DNA of 64,000 nucleotides, taken from IMG/VR virus record IMGVR_UViG_3300005326_000040, positions 192,001-256,000 of that record. One strand, written 5' to 3'. Below are positions 1,513 to 60,772 of this stretch, one piece after another. A program made the translations under genes and the position numbers. Numbering within the stretch: the stretch's first letter is position 1; each line of letters begins with the position of its first letter. The stretch comes from a virus (taxonomy: Duplodnaviria; Caudoviricetes). A model generated the notes under the pieces. That model searched no databases and had not been told where the DNA came from. It saw only the letters and a list, made by a program, of their open reading frames with translations.

Positions 1513-2949
1513 ATGAAAGTCACTGTTATTGTTCCTTTTGTTCGAATGGAGAATTTCGACAGATGCATTGAATCCATTCGAAAAAATCATGGATTGAGTG
1601 AAGATCCCGAGATTATTTGGGAACAGGACGAACTTGGTATCGGCTGTCCACGAATGGTAAAAAAATTGGTGGACAAATCGACCACCGATTTGGTTTGTTT
1701 TCTTGGAGATGATACCGAGCCCCAGCCAAACTTTCTGAGAAACGCTTTAGCTATGATGCGAAAGCTGGACTTATGGATGGTTGGATTTAATGACACTCAT
1801 ACGGTTCGTCCAACACATTGGTTAGCCAGCAAGAAACTTCTTAACGAAAGAGGGGAGTTTTTTGATACTCGGTTTGTACATAATTATTCTGATACAGAAC
1901 TGATGTTTCGTGCGGAACGGTTGGGGAAGTATGCTTGGTGTGAACAAGCTGTTGTTTTACACCATAACCCGTTAGCGGAAAAAAACATAAAACAAATCGA
2001 TAAGTTTTATCAACGGGGAGCAGATTACTTAAATCAAGACGAAAATCTTTTTCACGAATTGTGTTCTAAAGTATCTGTTGGCATGATTGTAAAGAATGAA
2101 GAAGTCATGTTGGCAGAGTGTCTTGAATCAGTAAAGGGCGCGGATGAAATAGTTGTTGTTGACACTGGTTCAACCGATCGAACCAAAGAAATAGCTGCTA
2201 GATATACTGATAAGATATACGATTTCAAATGGATTGATGATTTCGCGGCAGCTAGGAATTTCGTTATATCGAAATGTTCTCATGACTGGATTCTGTCTAT
2301 AGATGCTGATCAGTTATTGCTTCCCGGCAGTTTAGAACACTTCAAAGCTTTCTTACGTTCAAATGTAGAAATGCTGACTATTGGCACACACATGGTTGAC
2401 CCTGGTGTAGAATATTATGTGCCTAGGTTTTTCCGTAACGTTCCTTGCAATAGATGGCAGGGTATGATTCATGAAGCTATTGTGTTGACGCCCGGCAGGC
2501 ATATTGAATTGTCGGAAGTAAAGATTACCAGTAGGTTTAGTCCAGCGCATACTCAAGACCCAGATAGAAGTGTACGAATTCTATTGAAAGCGGTAGAGAA
2601 GGAACCAACAAGTTCTCGTTACTGGTATTACTTGGGACGGGAATACTGTTACCTCAAAGAATTTGAAAAAGCAGTATCTTGTTTAGATAAATGTGTTTCT
2701 TTTTGCGCGTGGTTACCTGAAAGAGCAGACGCATATTATTTGAAAGCGCTTTCTTTATGGTATCTTTGTAAGGGAGATAAAGCAAGAGAGGCTTGTTTTC
2801 AAGCTTTGTCTATCAACTCTGAATTCAAGTCTGCCTCTTTGCTTATGGCAGAAATGTCATGGGACCATAACAAAGCGGGTTGGCTTAGGATGGCTAACGG
2901 GGCAACCAATCAAGACGTTTTGTTTCGACGCGAAACGTTGTGCTTTTAG
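1513..2949 (+). CDS. two-domain GT-A/GT2 glycosyltransferase with C-terminal TPR repeats
   Basis: N-terminal VIVPFVR...FLGDD; second domain MIVKNEE...VDTGSTDRT...DFAAARN...IDAD; TPR-like YWYYLGREY...AYYLKA. Confidence 0.88.
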   Translation: MKVTVIVPFVRMENFDRCIESIRKNHGLSEDPEIIWEQDELGIGCPRMVKKLVDKSTTDLVCFLGDDTEPQPNFLRNALAMMRKLDLWMVGFNDTHTVRPTHWLASKKLLNERGEFFDTRFVHNYSDTELMFRAERLGKYAWCEQAVVLHHNPLAEKNIKQIDKFYQRGADYLNQDENLFHELCSKVSVGMIVKNEEVMLAECLESVKGADEIVVVDTGSTDRTKEIAARYTDKIYDFKWIDDFAAARNFVISKCSHDWILSIDADQLLLPGSLEHFKAFLRSNVEMLTIGTHMVDPGVEYYVPRFFRNVPCNRWQGMIHEAIVLTPGRHIELSEVKITSRFSPAHTQDPDRSVRILLKAVEKEPTSSRYWYYLGREYCYLKEFEKAVSCLDKCVSFCAWLPERADAYYLKALSLWYLCKGDKAREACFQALSINSEFKSASLLMAEMSWDHNKAGWLRMANGATNQDVLFRRETLCF

Positions 2950-2974
2950 ATCCAATCTATAGAAAGACAGCAAA

Positions 2975-3286
2975 ATGGTAGCAACACATAAGAAAAATGT
3001 GGAAGAAGCTATTAAACAAGCTGCGCCTAAACCTAAAATAAATAAAGACCCAGACTTCTATATTCCTAAAGATTTTGCGGGGCTATTGGCCGAAATTGAT
3101 GCGACTGCTAGGGCTCAGGGAGAATGGGATGGCCGGATGTTGAGTTGTTATGTGGCTTGTCAGGAAGCCTATAAGGCTGGGATTGTGAATGTGCCTCATC
3201 CCTCAGAACGAATGAGGTTGGGTGAAAAGCTTGCTGCTCTCATGAAGGCAGCTAACGAATTGTACAACGCCAAGACTAACGGATAG
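2975..3286 (+). CDS. hypothetical protein
   Basis: 103-aa ORF in operon. Confidence 0.65.
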   Translation: MVATHKKNVEEAIKQAAPKPKINKDPDFYIPKDFAGLLAEIDATARAQGEWDGRMLSCYVACQEAYKAGIVNVPHPSERMRLGEKLAALMKAANELYNAKTNG

Positions 3287-3290
3287 TAAA

Positions 3291-3470
3291 ATGGCAATGC
3301 ACAAGAAGATTGTGGAAGAAGCGCTTGAAGAGGCTCTTGCAGAACTCAAACGTGTTTCTTATCCAATTAATCATACAATGAGTTGCAGCATGAAGGCGGA
3401 GTATGATAAGCAGCATGATATTGCTCGTCGCGCAATCCTTGAAAGATTGTTGGAAAAGTTGAGAAAATAA
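3291..3470 (+). CDS. small hypothetical protein (59 aa, below the ORF-track cutoff)
   Basis: ATG 3291 to TAA 3470, MAMHKKIVEEALEE...; fills the gap exactly and abuts the next ATG. Confidence 0.6.
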   Translation: MAMHKKIVEEALEEALAELKRVSYPINHTMSCSMKAEYDKQHDIARRAILERLLEKLRK

Positions 3471-3908
3471 ATGGAACGTCTTGTTCAAGTCGGTTCAATT
3501 TTTGCCGTGCTTGCTTTCATTCACATGTTTGCCGATTTGTTTTCACAGACAGAAAACATAGCCATGCGTAAGCATGATGATTTAAGTTGTCGTTCTACTC
3601 ATTCTATTTTGTATACAATCTTTTTTATTCCACTTATATTGTATGTAAATGTAGGTTTGTATTATACATCCAGTCTTTTATGCTTTATTCTGTGTAGTCA
3701 TTTATGGGGTGATTCATATACGCCTTCCTATGTTTGGGCCAAATATGTTCGGCGGCCAAAAGAAATGACAAAGAAGAACAATGTGGAGGGCTTTATGGAT
3801 TATGCTGGCACAGGAATGGGGAAGGCTCTAATCATTTGGGTTGATCAGATCTATCACTTGGCTTGCCTTCTTCTGGTTGCTTTTGTAATTGTGAATAGCA
3901 CAAAATGA
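3471..3908 (+). CDS. DUF3307-like membrane protein
   Basis: H-x-x-A-D...Q, HSILY, HLWGD and DQIYH motifs with hydrophobic segments. Confidence 0.75.
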   Translation: MERLVQVGSIFAVLAFIHMFADLFSQTENIAMRKHDDLSCRSTHSILYTIFFIPLILYVNVGLYYTSSLLCFILCSHLWGDSYTPSYVWAKYVRRPKEMTKKNNVEGFMDYAGTGMGKALIIWVDQIYHLACLLLVAFVIVNSTK

Positions 3909-3927
3909 AGTGTAAGGAAATTGACTA

Positions 3928-4137
3928 ATGACTAATAAGATCGATGGAAAAGACTTTTACTTTGCCTTTGGGAATGCCGATGAAGGCGGCAAGTATATGA
4001 CTAACAAGATCAATGGAAAAGACTTTTATTTCGCCTTTGGGGATGCTGATGAAGGAGGAGGAAAGCATATGACTAACAAGATCAATGGAAAAGACTTTTA
4101 CTTTGCTTTTGGGAATGCTGATGAAGGAGGCAAGTAT
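3928..4137 (+). repeat. tandem repeat, 3 units (69, 72, 69 bp)
   Basis: Units start at 3928, 3997 and 4069; each begins with ATG and ends GAAGG(C/A)GG...(T/C)AT. Confidence 0.95.
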
Positions 4138-4356
4138 ATGTCAATTGTATCAAAAGAATATTGGAAGCAGAGGCATTGTGTTGAAGACAAATCTTTTGAT
4201 ATTAGTCATTTGATTCCGTATTTCCACAGTGAAGATATGGAATCTCTTTGGTTCCTTTATGATACTTCAGAAGAACAAGTTAGACAAGATATGGAAGACG
4301 CTGGATTTGAATATTCGGATGATTTCGCTGACTTTTTAGATAAGCATCCAATTTAA
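3928..4356 (+). CDS. hypothetical protein with three N-terminal 23-24 aa tandem repeats
   Basis: MTNKI(D/N)GKDFYFAFG(N/D)ADEGG repeated three times. Confidence 0.7.
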   Translation: MTNKIDGKDFYFAFGNADEGGKYMTNKINGKDFYFAFGDADEGGGKHMTNKINGKDFYFAFGNADEGGKYMSIVSKEYWKQRHCVEDKSFDISHLIPYFHSEDMESLWFLYDTSEEQVRQDMEDAGFEYSDDFADFLDKHPI

Positions 4357-4375
4357 ATTAATATCAAAGGACAAA

Positions 4376-4609
4376 ATGATTTATCATATTTGGAGACAGG
4401 CAGAAGGTGCAATAGATAAAACAACAGGGCAAGCTATTTGTACATATCATTGTGTAACTATTGGAGGGGAAGATGAACATTATGATGCGGTTCATGAGAT
4501 GGGAAATAAGATTGTTTACTTCTTCCAAGCTGATACGTGGCATGAGGCTATGGTAGAATACGATTCATGGCGCCGAGCGCAGGAAAAGAAACAATGGAAA
4601 GCGCATTAA
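4376..4609 (+). CDS. hypothetical protein
   Basis: 77-aa ORF, AAAGGA RBS. Confidence 0.6.
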   Translation: MIYHIWRQAEGAIDKTTGQAICTYHCVTIGGEDEHYDAVHEMGNKIVYFFQADTWHEAMVEYDSWRRAQEKKQWKAH

Positions 4610-4610
4610 G

Positions 4611-4781
4611 ATGACAGCAAAAGAAGCGCTGGAAAGAATTAGAAAGGTAAATGAACGTCTTTCTAAAATAGCAAGCGGAGAACTTCGGCCAAGGGTTATT
4701 GTTCAAACCCATGATGGTGGTGTTCGTATCTCAGCTAAGATAGTATTGGAAGAGAGCAAACTGATGCCTAATGAAAACTAG
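4611..4781 (+). CDS. small hypothetical protein (56 aa)
   Basis: ATG 4611 to TAG 4781, MTAKEALERIRK... Confidence 0.5.
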   Translation: MTAKEALERIRKVNERLSKIASGELRPRVIVQTHDGGVRISAKIVLEESKLMPNEN

Positions 4782-4830
4782 CTTGTCTTTTTGATTTCAA
4801 CGGAGAATACGTTTACAGGGGATAAACGTT

Positions 4831-5907
4831 ATGAGCACCGATGACGACGATAGAAGTTTTCGTTTCGAGTGGGCAAAGTTAGCAAATCAATTCAATGAAA
4901 AGGTTCGTTCTGATTTACTGGAAAGAAGTGGAGGAGATGCTGCTTCTTTGGTAATGTCAAAAGAGAATTTTATGCAAATGGGAGCGTCCCTTTGGGAACA
5001 TACCTATGCTGTTTGTCCAGATAATGATTCTGCTGCTTTTGATAACTTGCTTAAGTACTGGACTAGGACGGGACAGGAAACCCTTGTTCTTGCTGCTGGC
5101 TCTCCTGACATGCAGCTTACGCTTGGTTGGGTAGCCCGCTGGGCCGATCAAGCGTTCCCTCAAGTAATTCTTGGTCAAAGAACAGCAGCGGCTTTGATGG
5201 GGACATCCGCTTCCGAAGAAGTTGTAGAGAATCTTCATGCTCCTTGGAAGGCGTTTCTTGTCAATATCCCTCCTGGATTGTTGACTATTTATGATGATAC
5301 TGTTAAGCGGCAGGTATCAGCAACGTCTTTGGCTGTTCATGAAACGACGCGAGCGGGAGTTGGGACAACTTGGAATTGGCGCCTATCTTCTATGGAGTCT
5401 ACTGTTCAATTGTGGCAGTTTGGAATTACAACTAAGGAATTGGTTCAAGCAGACCTTTATGGATTCAGTGATAAGGAACTAGAAGACCTATTTGCCGACA
5501 GCGTAGATGACCAAGATAAGCGTCTTATGAGGCTTGTTGGTAGGTTGATTGTTGGCATCTGTCTCACTTTCCCTGACAACAACAAACGAGTAGGCGCTGG
5601 CCATAAGAAAGGCGCGCCTTTTCATGGATTTATCAAACAGGGAGAAGAGTTTGTTTGTGTTTCTCGGAGCTATGAACTAAGACCTCCTATCACAATTGAT
5701 TGCCGAGAGGCGATTAAGGATTATGTTGAACATGGGTCCAGGAGAGGTCACAGTCCTACTGTTCGTACGCTTGTTCGTGGAACCTATCGGCGACCTCCTC
5801 GGGGCATTGAAAAGGGACTGCCAAAGACAGTTTGGGTACAACCTCATTGGCGCGGCCCTAAGGATGCTCCTATTGTGGTTCGCGCGCATAAAGATAAGAA
5901 TCAATAA
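4831..5907 (+). CDS. hypothetical phage protein
   Basis: 358 aa; C-terminal VRGTYRR...WVQPHWRGP motif common in phage proteins. Confidence 0.75.
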   Translation: MSTDDDDRSFRFEWAKLANQFNEKVRSDLLERSGGDAASLVMSKENFMQMGASLWEHTYAVCPDNDSAAFDNLLKYWTRTGQETLVLAAGSPDMQLTLGWVARWADQAFPQVILGQRTAAALMGTSASEEVVENLHAPWKAFLVNIPPGLLTIYDDTVKRQVSATSLAVHETTRAGVGTTWNWRLSSMESTVQLWQFGITTKELVQADLYGFSDKELEDLFADSVDDQDKRLMRLVGRLIVGICLTFPDNNKRVGAGHKKGAPFHGFIKQGEEFVCVSRSYELRPPITIDCREAIKDYVEHGSRRGHSPTVRTLVRGTYRRPPRGIEKGLPKTVWVQPHWRGPKDAPIVVRAHKDKNQ

Positions 5908-27641: not shown

Positions 27642-27998
27642 TTGGGTTTTATGAATGCGAAACATTTGGAAAAATTGAAAAAGCTTATTGTAGATACTAT
27701 TAAAATTTTATCTGCTCGTGATTATGATTTTAATGTAGATGAGCGTGGTGATGAGGTTGATGCTGCTCAAGGTGGATTTATTGTCGGGATGATGCACGAC
27801 CAAAGAAATAGATCAAATGCAAGACTAGCAGAATTGAATGAGGCTCTTCTTAAAATAAAAGGGGGCATTTACGGTCTTTGCGAAGAGTGCGATGAAGAAA
27901 TTAGCATCAAACGGCTTGAAATATGCCCGGAGGCAAGATGCTGTATTCGATGCGCTGAAGTTCTCGAAAGAGAAAAGAAGGGCTATTTCACAAGATGA
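27642..27998 (+). CDS. DksA/TraR-family C4 Zn-finger protein
   Basis: GDEVDAA (DxxDxA tip); YGLCEECDEEISIKRLEICPEARCCIRC. Confidence 0.88.
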   Translation: MGFMNAKHLEKLKKLIVDTIKILSARDYDFNVDERGDEVDAAQGGFIVGMMHDQRNRSNARLAELNEALLKIKGGIYGLCEECDEEISIKRLEICPEARCCIRCAEVLEREKKGYFTR

Positions 27999-28696
27999 AA
28001 AAGAAGTCGATATTAGGTTATAATTCTTTGGCGCCTTGTGATAAAGACGCTGAAAATGATCAGGCTTATGATGTCTTTTTCCGGCTTTTAAACGAAAGAA
28101 ACGTTTTTCTTACAGGGGAAATTGAGCAAGAGTTGGCGGACGAAGTAATTGCTCAGCTTCTTTACTTGAGAAGTGTGGACCCACAAGCCCCAATTCAACT
28201 GTATATTAATTCTCCTGGCGGACATTTAAATTGTATGTTTGCTATTTATGATATTATTCAGTATCTTGAAGCACCAGTAAGTACAATTGTTTTTGGTGAA
28301 GCGTCATCAGCGGCTGCTGTATTGTTAGCTTGTGGGACTAGAGGGAAAAGAATGGCTTTCCCTAACGCCACTATTATGGTCCACCAACCTTGGGCTGGCG
28401 ATATGGAAGGACAAGCCACTGATATTGCGATACAAGCTCAGCAGTTGCAAAAAGAAAAAGTTCGTATTACTGAGATTTTAGCTAGACATACTGGGCAACC
28501 TTTCGAAAAAGTATTGACTGATTGTGAGCGAGATGTTTATCTTGGGGCCATTGAAGCAAAAGAATATGGCTTAGTAGATAGTATTATGCCTGTGCATCAA
28601 GTAATTCCCGAGCTTGTTGCAATGGAAGAAGATACTCCGGAAATTCAGGTAACACTCAAAGTTCCTCGCAAACGGCGCCCTCGTGCAAGAAAATGA
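27995..28696 (+). CDS. clpP: ATP-dependent Clp protease proteolytic subunit
   Basis: LYINSPGG, GEASSAA (Ser), IMVHQP (His), ERD (Asp), EYGLVD. Confidence 0.93.
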   Translation: MKKKSILGYNSLAPCDKDAENDQAYDVFFRLLNERNVFLTGEIEQELADEVIAQLLYLRSVDPQAPIQLYINSPGGHLNCMFAIYDIIQYLEAPVSTIVFGEASSAAAVLLACGTRGKRMAFPNATIMVHQPWAGDMEGQATDIAIQAQQLQKEKVRITEILARHTGQPFEKVLTDCERDVYLGAIEAKEYGLVDSIMPVHQVIPELVAMEEDTPEIQVTLKVPRKRRPRARK

Positions 28697-39135: not shown

Positions 39136-39277
39136 AGGTCGTTGGTCGAGTGGTCGAAGACGCCTCACGGTGAGTGGGGAGTGGCACGGTTTCCGGAAGC
39201 CGAACAGAAACAGTCTGGATGTTCGCGCGAACAAAAAGATTGTTGCCACCTCATTGGTTCAAATCCAGTACGGCCTA
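39136..39277 (+). ncRNA. tRNA-like RNA with a 73-nt variable-arm insertion and an atypical anticodon loop
   Basis: Acceptor AGGTCGT/ACGGCCT, class II D arm, stem CCTCA/TGGGG with loop CGGTGAG, T arm ATTGG-TTCAAAT-CCAGT. Confidence 0.75.
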
Positions 39278-39288
39278 CTATTAAATTA

Positions 39289-39365
39289 GGGACGGTAGCT
39301 CAGTTGGTTAGAGCGTTTGCCTGATAAGCAAAAGGTCGGCAGTCCGATTCTGCCTCGTCCCACCA
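39289..39365 (+). tRNA. tRNA-Ile(GAT)
   Basis: GGGACGG/TCGTCCC, loop CT-GAT-AA, encoded CCA; T-loop TCCGATT is non-canonical. Confidence 0.9.
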
Positions 39366-55519: not shown

Positions 55520-55849
55520 ATGGATGATAACAAGCACGGTGATTTTCTTCTTGAGGCTCAGAATCTTTCTAAAGAAAGAGAAGAAAAGCTAATAGAAATT
55601 AGGGAAGCTATTAAAACAGAAATTAGAAAAGCTGCATCTACTGAAGGCAGACGATATCAGCGTACTCTTTCATCTTTTTGCTCGTATGTTTTGCATCTGG
55701 ATCTAGATAAATCAACAGTGGCAGAATTTCTGCCATATTTAGCTTATCTTTCTAATGCTTTAGTGGTGGAAGGGTTTAAAGTTACTTTTTATCCTGCCGG
55801 AAGTAAATTTGATGATGTAGGAAATATTTGGATAAGTATTGAGTGGTAA
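55520..55849 (+). CDS. hypothetical protein
   Basis: AAGGA RBS before ATG 55520. Confidence 0.6.
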   Translation: MDDNKHGDFLLEAQNLSKEREEKLIEIREAIKTEIRKAASTEGRRYQRTLSSFCSYVLHLDLDKSTVAEFLPYLAYLSNALVVEGFKVTFYPAGSKFDDVGNIWISIEW

Positions 55850-55856
55850 GATTTTT

Positions 55857-55885
55857 TTGACAATCTAGGCATACACTGATATATA
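55857..55885 (+). promoter_or_regulatory. sigma70-type promoter for the Y-like RNA/Ro60 unit
   Basis: TTGACA (55857-62), 17-nt spacer, TG-A-TATATA (-10 at 55880-85). Confidence 0.75.
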
Positions 55886-55912
55886 GACTGGGCAGACTGA
55901 AAACGAATGTAT

Positions 55913-55982
55913 TCGGGTAGTGACGTTTCGGCTACTTCATTGATAACGAAAACCAACCGGAACAATTTTTCTCCCGATTTTT
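55913..55982 (+). ncRNA. Y-like RNA copy 1 (short form)
   Basis: TCGGG/CCCGA terminal stem, TAGTGA internal loop, GTTTCGG/CCGGAAC stem, CTACTTC, U-rich tail. Confidence 0.75.
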
Positions 55983-56004
55983 CTTCGTAAAGATTTAAAC
56001 GATT

Positions 56005-56140
56005 GTGGGCAGTGATCGTATCGGTTACTTCTTGATTAGGAAAAGTGGTTCGAATCCACCTACCAATTGGTGATCATATCAAAGATTGGCGCGGAGCCCT
56101 ACTGGCGAAGGGCATCTCCGATACACCTTTCTCCCCTTTT
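56005..56140 (+). ncRNA. Y-like RNA copy 2 (YrlA-like, with a tRNA-mimic module)
   Basis: GGG-CAGTGA, GTATCGG/CCGATAC stem, TTACTTC, T arm GTGG-TTCGAAT-CCAC, closed stem CCAAT/ATTGG, D-like arm GCCCT-ACTGGCGA-AGGGC, CTCCCC-TTTT. Confidence 0.82.
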
Positions 56141-56154
56141 GTTTTTTAAGGGTT

Positions 56155-56229
56155 TAGGGAAGTGAGATTTTGGTTACTTCAATACAAACCATTGGCAAAA
56201 CCACCAGAATCAATTTTCTCCCTATTTTT
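56155..56229 (+). ncRNA. Y-like RNA copy 3 (short form)
   Basis: TAGGG/CCCTA, AAGTGA, GATTTTGG/CCAGAATC, TTACTTC, U tail. Confidence 0.75.
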
Positions 56230-56247
56230 CTCCTATAAAGGAAGTGA

Positions 56248-57858
56248 GTGAAAGTCATGAGTAAGTTTTTTCATAACAAGGCTGTTTCTCGTACGGATAG
56301 CGAATCTCACGTTAATTTCATGGGCGGAAAGTCATTTGATATTTCCAACCCAATTGTGAAGCTGCGTATTATGGCTTCTTCTTCTTTCTTTGGCGAGCCG
56401 ATGTATTACAATGACGCCAAGGAAAATAGTAAGGCGGCAAACAGTTATATTGACAGCGTAAATCGCAGCTATCTTATCGAAATACTTGGCAATGCTATTC
56501 CTCCTACTGTTGGAAAAACTCCGGCAGAACTTATGGAAGAAGCGATTGATAATGCTTTAAGCTATTCTGTAGAAGGTACTTTGCGAGAGGCTGTTCGCCT
56601 TCGTAATGAAGAAAACATGCGAACAACGCCACAAGTAATTCTTGTGCGTGCTGCTCATCACAAGTCGGCCAAGGGGACCGGTCTTGTAAACCTTTATTCT
56701 AAGGATATTATCAAGCGTGCAGATGAACCGTCTGTTGGGCTTGCATATCATGTATATCGCTATGGTAAGGCTTGTCCTATTCCGAACAGTCTAAAGAAGG
56801 CTTGGAGAAATTCTCTCCAGGGATTCAATGATTATTCTCTTGCGAAGTATCGTATGGAGAATAAGGAAGTTAAGACTGTTGACGTTGTTAATTTGGTCCA
56901 TCCCAAGTCTTTTAACATTGACAAATTAATGAAGGATCAGCTTCGTAATACTGAAAACACTTGGGAAGCTATTATTTCAGCGGAAGGTTCCAATAAGGAA
57001 AGTTGGACAAAGGCTCTGGATGTAATGGGGCACATGGCCCTCTTAAGGAATTTGCGCAACCTAATTGAAAAAGGCGTTGAGCATGATCTATACTTAGGTC
57101 AGCTTGTAGAAGGCGCACCAACAGGAAAGCAGTTCCCGTTCCGATATTATAGCGCTTACAATGTCATCAAGCAGCTTGCAGGCTCCAATGGTAGAGTTCT
57201 TGATGCTCTTGAAGAATGTATGGAGCTTTCTATTGGTAATATGCCGAAGTTTGACGGTCGATTGATGTCTCTTTGTGATAATTCAGGTTCTGCACAAAGC
57301 GCTACAACCTCGTCCGTAGGGACAATGCGGATATCACAGATTGCTAACCTTTCAGCAGTGATTGCGGGCAAGTGTGCAACTGAAGGTCACATTGGGGTTT
57401 TTGGTGATTCTTTACAGACGTTTGAGATTCGCAAGAAGTCTTCAATTTTCGAGCAGACCGAAAAGGCAGATAATATCGGCCATACAATTGGGCAGGGCAC
57501 TGAAAACGGTATTTGGTTGTTTTGGGATAAAGCCATCAAAGAGAAGCAGCACTGGGACCATGTTTTTATCTTCTCGGATATGCAGGCGGGGCACGGTGGA
57601 CTGTATGGCTTGAATCATAGGCATTATCAGGATTATCGCTGGCATGGCACGAACATGATTGATGTGCCGAAGTTGATTAATACGTATCGCAAGCAGGTTA
57701 ATCCTAATGTAATGGTTTATTGCACGCAAGTTGCGGGTTACAGCGATACGATTATGCCTGAGTTTTACGATAAGACTTTTATACTTTCCGGATGGTCGGA
57801 ATCCTTGTTTAGATTCGCCTCAGAAATGTCAAAAATCTTTGTTCCTCAAAAACAATAG
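56248..57858 (+). CDS. Ro60/Rsr-like TROVE-domain RNA-binding protein with vWA domain
   Basis: GEPMYY, MRTTPQV, RADE, KYR, HPK, TWE, GHMALLRNLRNL, QFPFRYYSAY, CDNSGS MIDAS, FSDMQ, GWSE. Confidence 0.93.
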   Translation: MKVMSKFFHNKAVSRTDSESHVNFMGGKSFDISNPIVKLRIMASSSFFGEPMYYNDAKENSKAANSYIDSVNRSYLIEILGNAIPPTVGKTPAELMEEAIDNALSYSVEGTLREAVRLRNEENMRTTPQVILVRAAHHKSAKGTGLVNLYSKDIIKRADEPSVGLAYHVYRYGKACPIPNSLKKAWRNSLQGFNDYSLAKYRMENKEVKTVDVVNLVHPKSFNIDKLMKDQLRNTENTWEAIISAEGSNKESWTKALDVMGHMALLRNLRNLIEKGVEHDLYLGQLVEGAPTGKQFPFRYYSAYNVIKQLAGSNGRVLDALEECMELSIGNMPKFDGRLMSLCDNSGSAQSATTSSVGTMRISQIANLSAVIAGKCATEGHIGVFGDSLQTFEIRKKSSIFEQTEKADNIGHTIGQGTENGIWLFWDKAIKEKQHWDHVFIFSDMQAGHGGLYGLNHRHYQDYRWHGTNMIDVPKLINTYRKQVNPNVMVYCTQVAGYSDTIMPEFYDKTFILSGWSESLFRFASEMSKIFVPQKQ

Positions 57859-57887
57859 ATCAAACTTCCAATAAAAGAAAACACTTG

Positions 57888-57926
57888 AAACCTCCTGCTT
57901 TTTGTTCTTAAAACAGGAGGTTTTCT
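57888..57926 (+). terminator. Rho-independent terminator after Ro60
   Basis: AAACCTCCTG (57888-97) pairs with CAGGAGGTTT (57914-23), followed by T-rich sequence. Confidence 0.75.
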
Positions 57927-58014
57927 TCGTCTTTTAGGCTGCAAAAAAGTTTGTCGAAAGTGTATAAGTTGTTGATTTTGTTTAGTTTTTTGAATGGCGG
58001 ATCATAAAACTTTT

Positions 58015-58044
58015 TTGACAAAAACGCGCATAGCATGGTATATA
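58015..58044 (+). promoter_or_regulatory. sigma70-type promoter with extended -10
   Basis: TTGACA (58015-20), 18-nt spacer, TG-G-TATATA. Confidence 0.7.
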
Positions 58045-59315: not shown

Positions 59316-59756
59316 GTGACTTTCCGGCCATTGATCTATCTGGAGGTAAGGAAAATGACGAAAAAAATGAAGAGCGAAGGTGTTGATCATAGGCATCCAG
59401 CTGATTATATTGTGTTTTTTAGACAATCAGACGCCAAAAGATGTAGAAATGAATGTGATTGGGTTCTTGAAAACACAGAAACAACAGAGATTGTTGCCCA
59501 CGGTAGCCTAGAGGAAATGATGGAGCTATCTAAAACATATCCAAACTCTCGTCGGGCGACATGGGCGGAAGATACATTAAGATATAAGAGCGGGATATTT
59601 TATCAAGATTATTTTATGGAGTCAGTTTTTAGTAGTATCGATGATAAGATTAAGTATGCTGATGGTTGGGATGGTAGCATACGTGAAGCTGAAGCAAAAG
59701 ATAACTGGGATTATTTCACCAAACTCAACGCGGAGCCAAAAGACGATGGCGACTGA
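59316..59756 (+). CDS. hypothetical protein
   Basis: GGAGG RBS suggests ATG 59335. Confidence 0.6.
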   Translation: MTFRPLIYLEVRKMTKKMKSEGVDHRHPADYIVFFRQSDAKRCRNECDWVLENTETTEIVAHGSLEEMMELSKTYPNSRRATWAEDTLRYKSGIFYQDYFMESVFSSIDDKIKYADGWDGSIREAEAKDNWDYFTKLNAEPKDDGD

Positions 59757-60273
59757 AACAGAATTCAAGTTCACGGTTAATAAAGACCTTCTTCCGTCTT
59801 TATCAGATGCTTTATTTCGTCCGATAAATATCAAACAATTTTACCTTTCAGTTGGGGATTCATATTCTCCAGAAGTTCGAGTAAGGATTGAAGATGGCGT
59901 AAATTATCATCATGCGGAAATGACCATTAAAAGTGCCGTAGCCGACTATGTTAGGAAAGAAGTTTCTATACCAATAGAACCGGAAAAAGTTGAAGATCTT
60001 TTAGAAATGAAGGTTGGGCATATTATTGAAAAAACACGGTATCTTTTTACAATGACTGGCGCTCATTCTCCTCAGCTTGCCGGTAAGACTTTATGGGAAA
60101 TCGATATATATAAAGGCGCAAACGAAGGATTAATAATAGCTGAGTTTGAGATTCCTAGGAACTTCGAGACAGCGTATAGTTTTACGCCTCCAGCATGGGT
60201 TCTTGAAGATGTAACTAGAATGCCTAAATATAAGAATTCTCATCTAGCTTTGACGCCTTTTGTTCGGTGGTAA
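59746..60273 (+). CDS. CYTH-domain protein (triphosphate tunnel metalloenzyme)
   Basis: ETEFKF (ExExK), VRVR, TIK, EKTRY, WEIDIY, AEFE, YKN. Confidence 0.9.
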   Translation: MATETEFKFTVNKDLLPSLSDALFRPINIKQFYLSVGDSYSPEVRVRIEDGVNYHHAEMTIKSAVADYVRKEVSIPIEPEKVEDLLEMKVGHIIEKTRYLFTMTGAHSPQLAGKTLWEIDIYKGANEGLIIAEFEIPRNFETAYSFTPPAWVLEDVTRMPKYKNSHLALTPFVRW

Positions 60274-60274
60274 A

Positions 60275-60772
60275 ATGGATAAAATCATAAAAAATTTGTA
60301 TTTAGGCAATATCAAAGATGGACAAAACTGTCTTCTTGAAGGCGGATATGCTGTATTGAGTGTTGGAGAAGAGTTTAACGAATTTGGCGGGGAGGATGGC
60401 GTTGTCAGAATTCCATTGAGGAATCCAACCGATTGCGATTGGAAGAATATTCCAATGTGGGATAAGACTGGTGACGAGATTTTGAATTGGTTGGAGGTTG
60501 GGATGAAGTTTATTTCATCTCATATCAAAGAGAAACCAGTAATTGTTCATTGTATGGCAGGCAAGTCTCGTTCAGTGTCGTTTATTTGGGCCTATTTGAT
60601 GAGTTGTGGTTGTGAACCAGTATACGCATATCGAATAATAAAGAAAGCCCGCCCTATTGCTGAACCACATTTTGGGTTTTTGAAGAGCATTTTAGGTTGG
60701 TTTGGATTTGACAAAGTACAAACTGACGACATAATAGAAAACATCAAAGAAATTAATAAGAATGGTGGCTGA
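60275..60772 (+). CDS. dual-specificity protein phosphatase
   Basis: LYLGN; VHCMAGKSRS (HCx5R); KARPIAEPHFGF. Confidence 0.92.
   Translation: MDKIIKNLYLGNIKDGQNCLLEGGYAVLSVGEEFNEFGGEDGVVRIPLRNPTDCDWKNIPMWDKTGDEILNWLEVGMKFISSHIKEKPVIVHCMAGKSRSVSFIWAYLMSCGCEPVYAYRIIKKARPIAEPHFGFLKSILGWFGFDKVQTDDIIENIKEINKNGG

What the first reader, a model, noticed from the sequence alone, without database searches (positions are those of the whole stretch)
55857..57926. Self-contained phage Ro60 ribonucleoprotein operon: promoter, three Y-like RNAs, Ro60/TROVE, terminator
Seen: a sigma70 promoter (55857-85) is followed by a 360-bp non-coding stretch holding three paralogous stem-loop RNAs (55913-82, 56005-140, 56155-229), then an intact TROVE-vWA gene and a terminator. 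All three RNAs share GGG-N-AGTGA, a 7-8 bp helix, YTACTTC, a variable domain, the complementary helix strand, A(A/C)YTTT, CTCCC and a U tail. The helix sequences differ between copies yet all pair (GTTTCGG/CCGGAAC, GTATCGG/CCGATAC, GATTTTGG/CCAGAATC), which is internal covariation. Established: Ro60 binds Y RNAs through a stem formed by their 5' and 3' ends; bacterial Y RNA genes lie next to rsr; Deinococcus Rsr/Y RNA tethers PNPase; some phages carry Ro60 plus YrlA. Inference: the phage makes three distinct Ro60 RNPs with interchangeable effector domains, plausibly to redirect host RNA decay or protect RNAs. I know of no description of this array or motif.
Basis: partly seen in the sequence, partly recalled or inferred. 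Interest (0 to 1): 0.9.

Follow-up and report, generated by a model that had tools for sequence, protein, structure and literature searches.

The report
Phage Ro60 gene with three Y RNAs
A 338-kb groundwater phage carries a gene for the ring-shaped RNA-binding protein Ro60, preceded by three small RNA genes that share one docking structure; this is a divergent form of the known bacterial and phage Ro60/Y RNA system and is common in phage contigs.

Summary
Three units lie at 55915-55975, 56007-56135 and 56157-56222. Each has a covarying 3-bp closing stem, a bulged base, AGUGA, a covarying 7-8 bp helix, YUACUUC, a variable body, the return strand and UUCUCC.

They sit between a TTGACA-17-TGnTATATA promoter and the only TROVE gene of the 338-kb genome. 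That gene's predicted fold matches solved Ro60 structures. A terminator hairpin follows it.

The same "handle" recurs on the TROVE strand in 39 of 80 related phage loci, with strong covariation. A sister dialect, GC(A/G)G in place of UGA, serves another Ro60 clade that includes Bacillus phage G. Unit 2 carries a perfect T arm and a degenerate permuted tRNA body of the YrlA type. Units 1 and 3 are minimal hairpins.

Rfam's YrlA model misses the window but hits long units of the same family in a relative below threshold. I therefore read this as a divergent phage branch of the known Ro60-YrlA/YrlB system, not a new kind.

Operons with several Y RNAs upstream of Ro60 are already published (M. smegmatis, Thermus phage phiLo). 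This scan has noted Ro60 plus Y-RNA arrays on many other genomes, with other handles. Expression and binding are untested.

The parts
55857..55885 (+). Sigma-70-type promoter: -35 TTGACA (55857-62), 17-nt spacer, extended -10 TGaTATATA (55877-85). Predicted start about 55892.
   Evidence: Read. TTGACA-N15-19-TATAWW has 3 matches in the window against 0.30 expected, and the other nearby match (58015) precedes the next gene. Not listed by the generic scan. Function is inferred.
55915..55975 (+). Y-like RNA 1, minimal. Handle 5' strand GGGUAGUGA (55915-23), helix II GUUUCGG (55925-31), CUACUUC (55932-38), 18-nt A/C-rich loop, CCGGAAC (55957-63), UUUUUCUCCC (55966-75). A U tract follows.
   Evidence: R2 (seed without the window) gives 34.3 bits, E 4e-6. 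It is in the seed of R1, so its R1 score is by construction.
56007..56135 (+). Y-like RNA 2, YrlA type. Handle GGGCAGUGA (56007-15), helix II GUAUCGG (56018-24) with CCGAUAC (56118-24), UUACUUC (56025-31). T arm GUGG-UUCGAAU-CCAC (56045-59), closed acceptor-like hairpin (56063-89), D-like arm with GG loop (56096-113), CUUUCUCCC (56127-35).
   Evidence: Anchored scan. R2 gives 38.0 bits, E 5e-7, full length; the handle and T arm align, but the acceptor-like and D-like parts do not. The centroid fold shows four helices. No RF02553 or tRNA match at E<=10.
56157..56222 (+). Y-like RNA 3, minimal. GGGAAGUGA (56157-65), helix II GAUUUUGG (56166-73) with CCAGAAUC (56204-11), UUACUUC (56174-80), 23-nt loop, UUUUCUCCC (56214-22). 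A U tract follows.
   Evidence: R2 gives 30.1 bits, E 4e-5.
56240..56248 (+). GGAAGUGAG: ribosome-binding region of the Ro60 gene. It also copies the 5' strand of the handle (a half-site, with no YUACUUC or return strand).
   Evidence: AGTGA lies within 25 nt of the start codon in 7 of 26 close TROVE genes. It occurs at 10 of all 299 ORF starts, and those 10 include the TROVE genes. It is also one base from the extended Shine-Dalgarno GGAGGUGA, so it may be only that.
56257..57858 (+). Ro60 ortholog: 533 aa, a TROVE HEAT-repeat ring plus a vWA domain with MIDAS D341-x-S343-x-S345, T415, D441.
   Evidence: Pfam TROVE. PHROG 850. phmmer to phiLo Ro60 9kop/9l5y E 1.2e-17. AF2 model pLDDT 70.4, whose 13 best Foldseek hits are all Ro60 structures (9kop, 2nvo, 1yvp, 9nen; TM 0.54-0.64). 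It is the only TROVE gene in the genome.
57888..57935 (+). Terminator-like hairpin, AAACCUCCUG...CAGGAGGUUU, followed by UUCUUCGUCUUUU.
   Evidence: MFE -18.2 kcal/mol, z -2.49.

Best explanation
This is a phage-encoded Ro60/Y RNA system.

One promoter (55857-85) most likely drives a transcript that carries three Y RNAs and then the Ro60 mRNA. The spacers between units are only 21-31 nt, too short for promoters of their own. The RNAs are therefore most likely released by processing, or by partial termination at the U tracts that follow each unit.

Each RNA closes its 5' and 3' ends into the same handle:
- a covarying 3-bp stem,
- one bulged base,
- A-U and G-C pairs,
- an internal loop (UGA opposite U-rich),
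- a covarying 7-8 bp helix,
- a conserved junction, YUACUUC on the 5' side and A-rich (AAAACAC-like) on the 3' side.

By position and architecture this handle corresponds to the Ro60-binding module of YrlA and other Y RNAs. I infer that it docks on the phage Ro60.

The bodies differ. Units 1 and 3 present 18-23 nt A/C-rich single-stranded loops. Unit 2 presents a T arm within a degenerate, circularly permuted tRNA-like fold. By analogy with D. radiodurans Rsr-Yrn1-PNPase and Thermus phage phiLo Ro60-Yrl-PNPase, the bodies would tether different host factors to Ro60 during infection, or gate access to its cavity. Candidate factors are PNPase or another single-strand RNA binder, and a protein that binds the tRNA elbow.

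Shown here by computation: motif, structure, linkage and protein fold. Inferred: transcription, processing, Ro60 binding and partners.
For: - Motif specificity: three copies against 0.13 expected, and nowhere else in 338 kb.
- Independent models: R2 finds all three units. R1 gives 86 hits at E<0.1 in 80 TROVE-anchored viral loci, all on the TROVE strand, 64 upstream and 16 downstream, in 39 of 80 loci and 22 of 28 close relatives.
- Covariation: in the MAFFT alignment A2, 84.9% of cells are paired against 70.0% shuffled, score 0.448 against 0.186, 0 of 500 shuffles reach it, and slid registers score 0.09-0.31. In the 86-hit alignment the first closing pair is GC 33, AU 16, CG 16, UA 8, and all 8 helix II pairs have double changes.
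- Converse test: of 119 pattern matches in prokaryote genomes, only 2 also have both stems, and both lie directly upstream of a TROVE gene; 0 of the other 117 do. In viral contigs, 17 structured matches went with 11 TROVE hits in the fetched DNA. Of the 4 remaining records, 3 also hold a TROVE gene, and in 2 of those it is adjacent.
- Protein: Ro60 fold and an intact MIDAS motif.
- Homology to YrlA: RF02553 aligns a long unit of this family (L039:6198-6329, 35.9 bits, E 3e-6), with GGGUAGUGA falling under the model's ggCgaAUGC.
- Handle dialect tracks the Ro60 lineage: 4 changes on the tree against 23.8 when shuffled.
- Literature: Y RNAs lie within 4 kb of rsr on the same strand, each species has at least 2, and they are processed from one precursor in M. 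smegmatis (PMC4201824). Phage phiLo Yrl1 and Yrl2 bind phage Ro60 and host PNPase (PMC12135203).
Against: - There are no expression, processing or binding data. The only run that holds most of the stretch is a groundwater DNA metagenome, probably the source sample, and no listed run is RNA.
- Rfam YrlA and tRNA models give nothing in the window even at E<=10.
- The canonical GNCGAAN0-1G motif is absent.
- The acceptor-like and D-like parts of unit 2 do not align to the long-unit model.
- Single-sequence folds are not better than shuffles. The lowest-energy fold of unit 2 prefers a competing AGUGA:UUACU hairpin.
- The genome has no RtcB, and no partner nuclease was identified.
- Alignment A3 was fitted to the model, which inflates its pair counts.
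- Clustering of the handle type on the Ro60 tree can reflect shared descent alone.
Confidence: 0.85

Rival explanations
1. The 365-nt stretch is not three separate RNAs. It is one structured 5' leader of the Ro60 mRNA, and Ro60 binds its repeated handles, together with the half-site over the ribosome-binding region, to autoregulate its own synthesis.
For: There is a single promoter and no room for internal ones. A half-site, GGAAGUGAG, overlaps the ribosome-binding region, and AGTGA next to the start codon recurs in 7 of 26 close TROVE genes.
Against: In relatives the same units lie downstream of the TROVE gene or more than 1 kb away; 16 of 80 placed hits are downstream. They occur in arrays of up to 7-9. 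Long units are YrlA homologs. Known Y RNAs are cut from precursors (PMC4201824). The half-site is one base from an extended Shine-Dalgarno sequence. Autoregulation could also coexist with free Y RNAs.
Confidence: 0.08
2. The RNAs are real and structured, but their protein partner is not Ro60. It is another phage or host protein, and the linkage to TROVE reflects a shared pathway only.
For: Binding is untested. The canonical Ro-contact motif GNCGAA is absent. Earlier notes of this scan (unchecked) report tRNA-like handle RNAs with non-Ro partners elsewhere.
Against: No other gene is consistently adjacent. Immediate neighbours differ between loci, while TROVE is the constant one. The handle has the position and architecture of the Ro60-binding module. 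Its dialect follows the Ro60 clade.
Confidence: 0.05
3. The units are decaying tRNA-derived repeats or terminator/attenuator hairpins with no function of their own.
For: A T arm in unit 2. U tracts after each unit. Many relatives sit next to tRNA arrays.
Against: Compensatory changes keep two stems across dozens of divergent loci. Single-stranded motifs are invariant. The units are strictly co-oriented with TROVE. U tracts are not conserved in relatives. The terminator scan flags no site at the 3' end of any unit; its one + strand site inside the array is the competing hairpin at 56011-56029.
Confidence: 0.02

Closest known systems
Bacterial YrlA / YrlB with Rsr (Salmonella Typhimurium, M. smegmatis; Rfam RF02553; Chen et al. 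2014, PMC4201824; Wang et al. 2018, 10.1101/312249)
   Same: RNAs lie on the Ro60 strand, just upstream of the gene, with two or more per locus. One has a circularly permuted tRNA body (T arm, closed acceptor-like hairpin, D arm) on a stem formed by the 5' and 3' ends, and others are plain hairpins. YUAY is conserved after the 5' strand of the anticodon-like helix. The M. smegmatis RNAs are co-transcribed with rsr and processed. RF02553 aligns a long unit of this family below threshold.
   Different: The Ro-contact motif GNCGAAN0-1G is replaced by G-N-AGUGA, with a bulged base and a UUCUCC return strand. The window's own unit 2 is not detected by RF02553, and its D-like and acceptor-like arms are degenerate. 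The genome has no rtcBA. Three RNAs rather than two.
Thermus phage phiLo Ro60 with Yrl1 and Yrl2 (PMC12135203; PDB 9KOP, 9L5Y)
   Same: A phage Ro60 with Y-like RNAs directly upstream. It is the best structural and sequence match of the protein. Binding of the RNAs to phage Ro60 and to host PNPase was shown there.
   Different: The phiLo RNAs were picked by their CGAA motifs, and I saw no YUACUUC handle in that leader. Two RNAs, neither described as tRNA-like. About 20-24% protein identity.
Bacillus phage G gp540 locus and its metagenomic clade
   Same: It is the closest cultured relative of the protein (41.6%). A roughly 1-kb non-coding leader holds five units with the same YUACUUC junction, a covarying helix and a UCUC return strand. 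Arrays reach 7-9 units in relatives.
   Different: Positions 7-9 of the handle read C-(A/G)-G instead of U-G-A (type B). That clade is uniformly type B on the Ro60 tree.
D. radiodurans Rsr-Yrn1-PNPase (RYPER) and metazoan Ro60-Y RNA
   Same: The RNA is modular: a terminal stem with a bulge binds Ro60 and a distal module recruits an effector. The Ro60 fold is shared (2nvo and 1yvp among the top hits).
   Different: The sequences are unrelated (GGUCCGA helix in metazoa). The effector here is unknown, and Rfam Y_RNA gives no hit.

Membership tests
YrlA (Rfam RF02553; Chen et al. 2014) | Encoded within about 4 kb of a Ro60/TROVE gene on the same strand | tested here: met
   The units end 35-282 nt upstream of the ATG at 56257, on the same strand. 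The same holds for all 86 model hits in relatives.
YrlA (Rfam RF02553; Chen et al. 2014) | Reaches the Rfam covariance model's gathering score (69 bits) | tested here: not met
   No RF02553 match in 55800-56300 even at E<=10 or in the window at gathering. Positive controls: Gordonia phage Neville 44.1 bits, and a long unit of this same handle family, L039, 35.9 bits. Both are below 69 bits too.
YrlA (Rfam RF02553; Chen et al. 2014) | GNCGAAN0-1G motif near the 5' end (putative Ro60 contact) | tested here: not met
   All three units have G-N-AGUGA at that position. In the cmscan alignment of a relative it falls under the model's ggCgaAUGC.
YrlA (Rfam RF02553; Chen et al. 2014) | Conserved YUAY after the 5' strand of the anticodon-like helix | tested here: met
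   CUAC or UUAC in all three units, as part of an invariant YUACUUC.
YrlA (Rfam RF02553; Chen et al. 2014) | Circularly permuted tRNA-like body: T arm, closed acceptor-like stem-loop, UA, D arm | tested here: inconclusive
   Unit 2 has a perfect T loop UUCGAAU on a 4-bp stem, a closed hairpin, and a 4-5 bp arm with a GG loop, in the right order. The connector is GA, not UA. The acceptor-like and D-like parts do not align to the long-unit model, and no tRNA-model hit appears. Units 1 and 3 lack the body altogether, like YrlB.
Y RNA in the functional sense | Bound and stabilised by Ro60 through the stem formed by the 5' and 3' ends | not testable with these tools
   The terminal stem and bulge are supported by covariation. 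Binding needs EMSA or co-immunoprecipitation.
Ro60 / TROVE proteins | HEAT-repeat ring plus C-terminal vWA domain with MIDAS | tested here: met
   Pfam TROVE 42.6 bits against a cut-off of 23. The 13 best Foldseek hits are all Ro60 structures, aligned over about 470-590 columns, TM 0.54-0.64. D341, S343, S345, T415 and D441 are invariant in relatives. The model is only moderate: pLDDT 70.4, and residues 1-87 are poorly modelled.

The most novel reading that the evidence does not exclude
The YUACUUC handle defines a large class of phage Y RNAs that, as far as I could find, is undescribed. It comprises minimal RNAs of about 55-70 nt, permuted and non-permuted tRNA bodies, and other structured bodies, in arrays of 2 to 9. 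Positions 7-9 of the handle (UGA versus C-R-G) form dialects matched to particular Ro60 lineages. That would give a natural specificity code for Ro60-RNA recognition. In addition, a copy of the handle's 5' strand over the Ro60 ribosome-binding region could let Ro60 repress its own translation.
Probability: 0.35. Interest if true: 0.6.

Novelty: new variant of a known kind. Interest (0 to 1): 0.5.

Why it matters
Ro60/Y RNA particles are well known in animals and a few bacteria, but what they do for phages is open. Only one phage system (phiLo) has been studied biochemically.

This locus is a compact, apparently self-contained example: promoter, three RNAs, protein, terminator. It could be moved into a laboratory strain as a single piece.

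The comparative data gathered around it give three things.
- A covariation-supported consensus for a phage Y RNA handle that Rfam's YrlA model does not detect in this window and scores only below its threshold in a relative.
- Evidence that one constant docking module carries interchangeable bodies.
- Two handle dialects that follow Ro60 lineages, which makes the RNA-recognition specificity of Ro60 testable by swap experiments.

It does not overturn anything. It extends a known system.

Tried and rejected
- Rfam at gathering and at E<=10 gives nothing for the three units. This was not for lack of a model, since RF02553 hits control loci.
- blastn of the RNA region against the phage collection gives no match. 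A single-protein scan of viral contigs gave no relatives; the alignment-based scan worked.
- The short-unit model R1 cannot span unit 2, even with filters off. R2, built from foreign long units, was needed.
- A conserved alternative hairpin, AGUGA pairing with UUACU, which dominates the lowest-energy fold of unit 2, is rejected. In type B handles (GCAG/GCGG) the pairing is lost while YUACUUC stays.
- The R2 hit at 27965-28030 is spurious: it lies inside ORFs and has no motif. The R2 hit at 39253-39315 is a tRNA-tRNA junction, not a Y RNA.
- An RtcB partner is absent from the genome.
- RNA-seq evidence: none on record.
- A literature search for the motif string together with Ro60 gave no paper. 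The supplement of Chen et al. 2014, which lists their 22 phages, is not held. I therefore cannot exclude that some long units of this family were counted there.
- Handle resemblance to the Shine-Dalgarno/anti-Shine-Dalgarno duplex was considered and dropped as unsupported.
Full report
**What is there**

The window is bases 192001-256000 of a 338,055-bp virus record rated 97% complete. The only run that holds most of the stretch is a groundwater metagenome, probably the source sample.

Between the stop of a small ORF at 55849 and the ATG at 56257 lies 407 nt without an ORF of note on the + strand. It holds three units with the same ordered elements:
- three bases N1N2G,
- one unpaired base,
- AGUGA,
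- a 7-8 nt helix strand,
- YUACUUC,
- a variable body,
- the complementary helix strand,
- 2-3 bases,
- U-rich UUCUC,
- then N2'N1'.

Coordinates are 55915-55975, 56007-56135 and 56157-56222. The core pattern occurs three times against 0.13 expected, and nowhere else in the genome on either strand.

**Flanks**

Upstream is TTGACA, 17 nt, TGaTATATA (55857-85). The same promoter type precedes the next gene at 58015, and the pattern is rare in the window: 3 matches against 0.30 expected.

Downstream of the ORF is an 11-bp hairpin with a U-rich tail at 57888-57935. Spacers between units are 21-31 nt, so independent promoters are unlikely. Each unit is followed by a U tract.

**The protein**

ORF 56257-57858 (533 aa) matches:
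- Pfam TROVE,
- PHROG 850 "RNA-binding protein", E 1.9e-40,
- the solved Thermus phage phiLo Ro60 by sequence, E 1.2e-17.

An AlphaFold model built on nine relatives (pLDDT 70.4) has only Ro60 structures as its 13 best Foldseek matches, aligned over about 470-590 columns: phiLo, D. radiodurans Rsr, Xenopus and human Ro60. The vWA MIDAS residues are invariant. It is the sole TROVE gene of the genome.

**Is the RNA motif more than a local repeat?**

A pattern scan of viral contigs gave 37 loci. Seventeen matches also began with GG(G), which was not in the pattern, and had a complementary helix. Eleven of the loci holding these matches had a TROVE gene in the fetched DNA. Of the four remaining records, three also hold a TROVE gene, adjacent in two. 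The fourth is a 6-kb fragment.

An unbiased set was then fetched by protein. The scan found 503 TROVE relatives in viral contigs, and 80 loci were kept. A covariance model of 19 short units (R1) gave 86 hits at E<0.1:
- every hit is on the TROVE strand,
- 64 are upstream (median 232 nt) and 16 downstream,
- hits occur in 39 of 80 loci and in 22 of the 28 closest relatives; three of the six relatives without a hit have almost no upstream DNA.

In prokaryote genome contigs, 119 loose pattern matches contained only two with both stems.

**Structure**

On the plain MAFFT alignment, the proposed 15 pairs are 84.9% paired against 70.0% in shuffles. The covariation score is 0.448 against 0.186 (0 of 500 shuffles reach it), and slid registers give 0.09-0.31.

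On the 86-hit alignment, which was fitted to the model and so leans towards it, the outermost pair is GC 33, AU 16, CG 16, UA 8. All eight pairs of helix II show double changes. The closing stem, the bulge and helix II are therefore well supported. AGUGA, YUACUUC and UCUC are invariant and say nothing either way about pairing.

**Independent test of the window's units**

R2 was built from ten long units of other phages only. It finds unit 2 at full length (38.0 bits, E 5e-7) and also units 1 and 3. In unit 2 the handle and the T arm align. The acceptor-like and D-like parts do not.

The centroid fold of unit 2 shows four helices in the order T arm, closed hairpin, D-like arm, on helix II. Long units in relatives are much more canonical, with GGUUCGAAUCC T arms and GUAGCUCAGUUGGUAGAGC D arms.

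**Relation to known Y RNAs**

Chen et al. 2014 (PMC4201824) define YrlA by:
- proximity to rsr on the same strand,
- a 5' GNCGAAN0-1G motif,
- a conserved YUAY,
- a permuted tRNA body.

Rfam RF02553 gives no match in the window. It does hit an actinophage control (44.1 bits) and a long unit of this very handle family in L039 (35.9 bits). In that alignment GGGUAGUGA falls under the model's ggCgaAUGC and UUAC under CUAc. The handle is thus a divergent version of the YrlA Ro-binding module rather than an unrelated structure.

Thermus phage phiLo shows experimentally that a phage Ro60 binds two upstream Y-like RNAs and that these engage host PNPase (PMC12135203).

**Dialects**

Bacillus phage G has the closest cultured Ro60 (41.6%). 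It has five units in a 1-kb leader with the same YUACUUC and UCUC, but with GCGG where the window has GUGA.

Across 91 TROVE loci:
- 39 carry the AGU(G/A) type,
- 41 the GC(A/G)G type,
- 2 carry both,
- 9 carry neither.

Arrays reach 7-9 units, and there are few matches on the opposite strand. On a Ro60 tree the type needs 4 changes against 23.8 when labels are shuffled, and a 26-member clade with full support is purely type B. This fits joint inheritance, and possibly co-adaptation, of protein and handle, but relatedness alone would also cluster the labels. Seven alignment columns discriminate the two clades, four of them at residues 177-212. These are leads only.

**Mechanism**

Most likely the promoter drives one precursor, from which three Y RNAs are cut or terminated, and read-through gives the Ro60 mRNA. 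Each RNA docks on Ro60 through the common handle. The bodies (two A/C-rich loops and one T-arm-bearing tRNA-like fold) recruit different host factors or gate the Ro60 cavity.

The genome has no RtcB, and the neighbours give no clear partner. A CYTH protein and a dual-specificity phosphatase lie 1.8-2.9 kb downstream, behind another promoter. None of transcription, processing, binding or partner choice is shown here.

**Novelty and score**

The kind is known, and the architecture (several Y RNAs upstream of Ro60, one of them a tRNA mimic) is the published norm. New, as far as I could find, are the handle consensus, its phage-wide spread, the minimal 55-70 nt members and the lineage-matched dialects.

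Earlier notes of this scan report Ro60 with Y-RNA arrays in hundreds of other genomes with other handles. None was found under this motif. The locus is therefore a good, clean member of a recurring theme.

I rate it a new variant of a known kind, interest 0.5.

Noticed in passing
window 56240-56248: GGAAGUGAG, a copy of the handle's 5' strand, overlaps the Ro60 ribosome-binding region. AGTGA lies within 25 nt of the start codon in 7 of 26 close TROVE genes, against 10 of 299 for all ORFs (a count that includes those TROVE genes). This may be an autoregulatory site or only a Shine-Dalgarno variant.
   Followed up: partly
L124 (Bacteroides phage crAss001) 3838-4744, especially about 4112-4258 and 4370-4500: The 900-nt gap downstream of the crAss001 TROVE gene holds several divergent (U)AGUG...UUACUUC units. 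It also holds two tRNA-like halves (acceptor 5' strand plus D arm, then T arm plus acceptor 3' strand) separated by about 90 nt that contain a handle motif. ARAGORN calls no tRNA there.
   Followed up: partly
L119:2398-2525 and L065:2725-2837: In these two units the handle carries a non-permuted tRNA-like body (D arm, anticodon-like hairpin, T arm), with the handle in place of the acceptor stem. The family therefore uses both topologies.
   Followed up: no
L013 (IMGVR_UViG_3300032156_002402) 2354-5833: This phage contig has about 30 tRNA genes and a bacterial-type RNase P RNA (RF00010, 136 bits) next to its TROVE gene and Y-RNA units.
   Followed up: no
window 39253-39315: The long-unit model matches a tRNA-tRNA junction with its T arm, acceptor-like and D arm positions (24.5 bits). 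This is what the published idea that YrlA arose from dimeric tRNA transcripts would predict.
   Followed up: no
window 59641-60772: Adjacent genes for a CYTH (triphosphate tunnel) protein and a dual-specificity phosphatase lie downstream of the Ro60 unit, behind a second promoter of the same type at 58015. They may be RNA-end-modifying enzymes.
   Followed up: no
L004 (Bacillus phage G) 1680-2330: Five unannotated Y-like units with the type B handle (GA[A/U]GCGG ... YUACUUC) fill the 1-kb 'empty' leader of gp540. No feature is annotated there in the record.
   Followed up: partly
window 56011-56029: AGUGA and UUACU of the same unit can pair into a small hairpin, which competes with helix II and dominates the lowest-energy fold of unit 2. 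The pairing is not conserved in type B handles, so it is probably incidental.
   Followed up: yes
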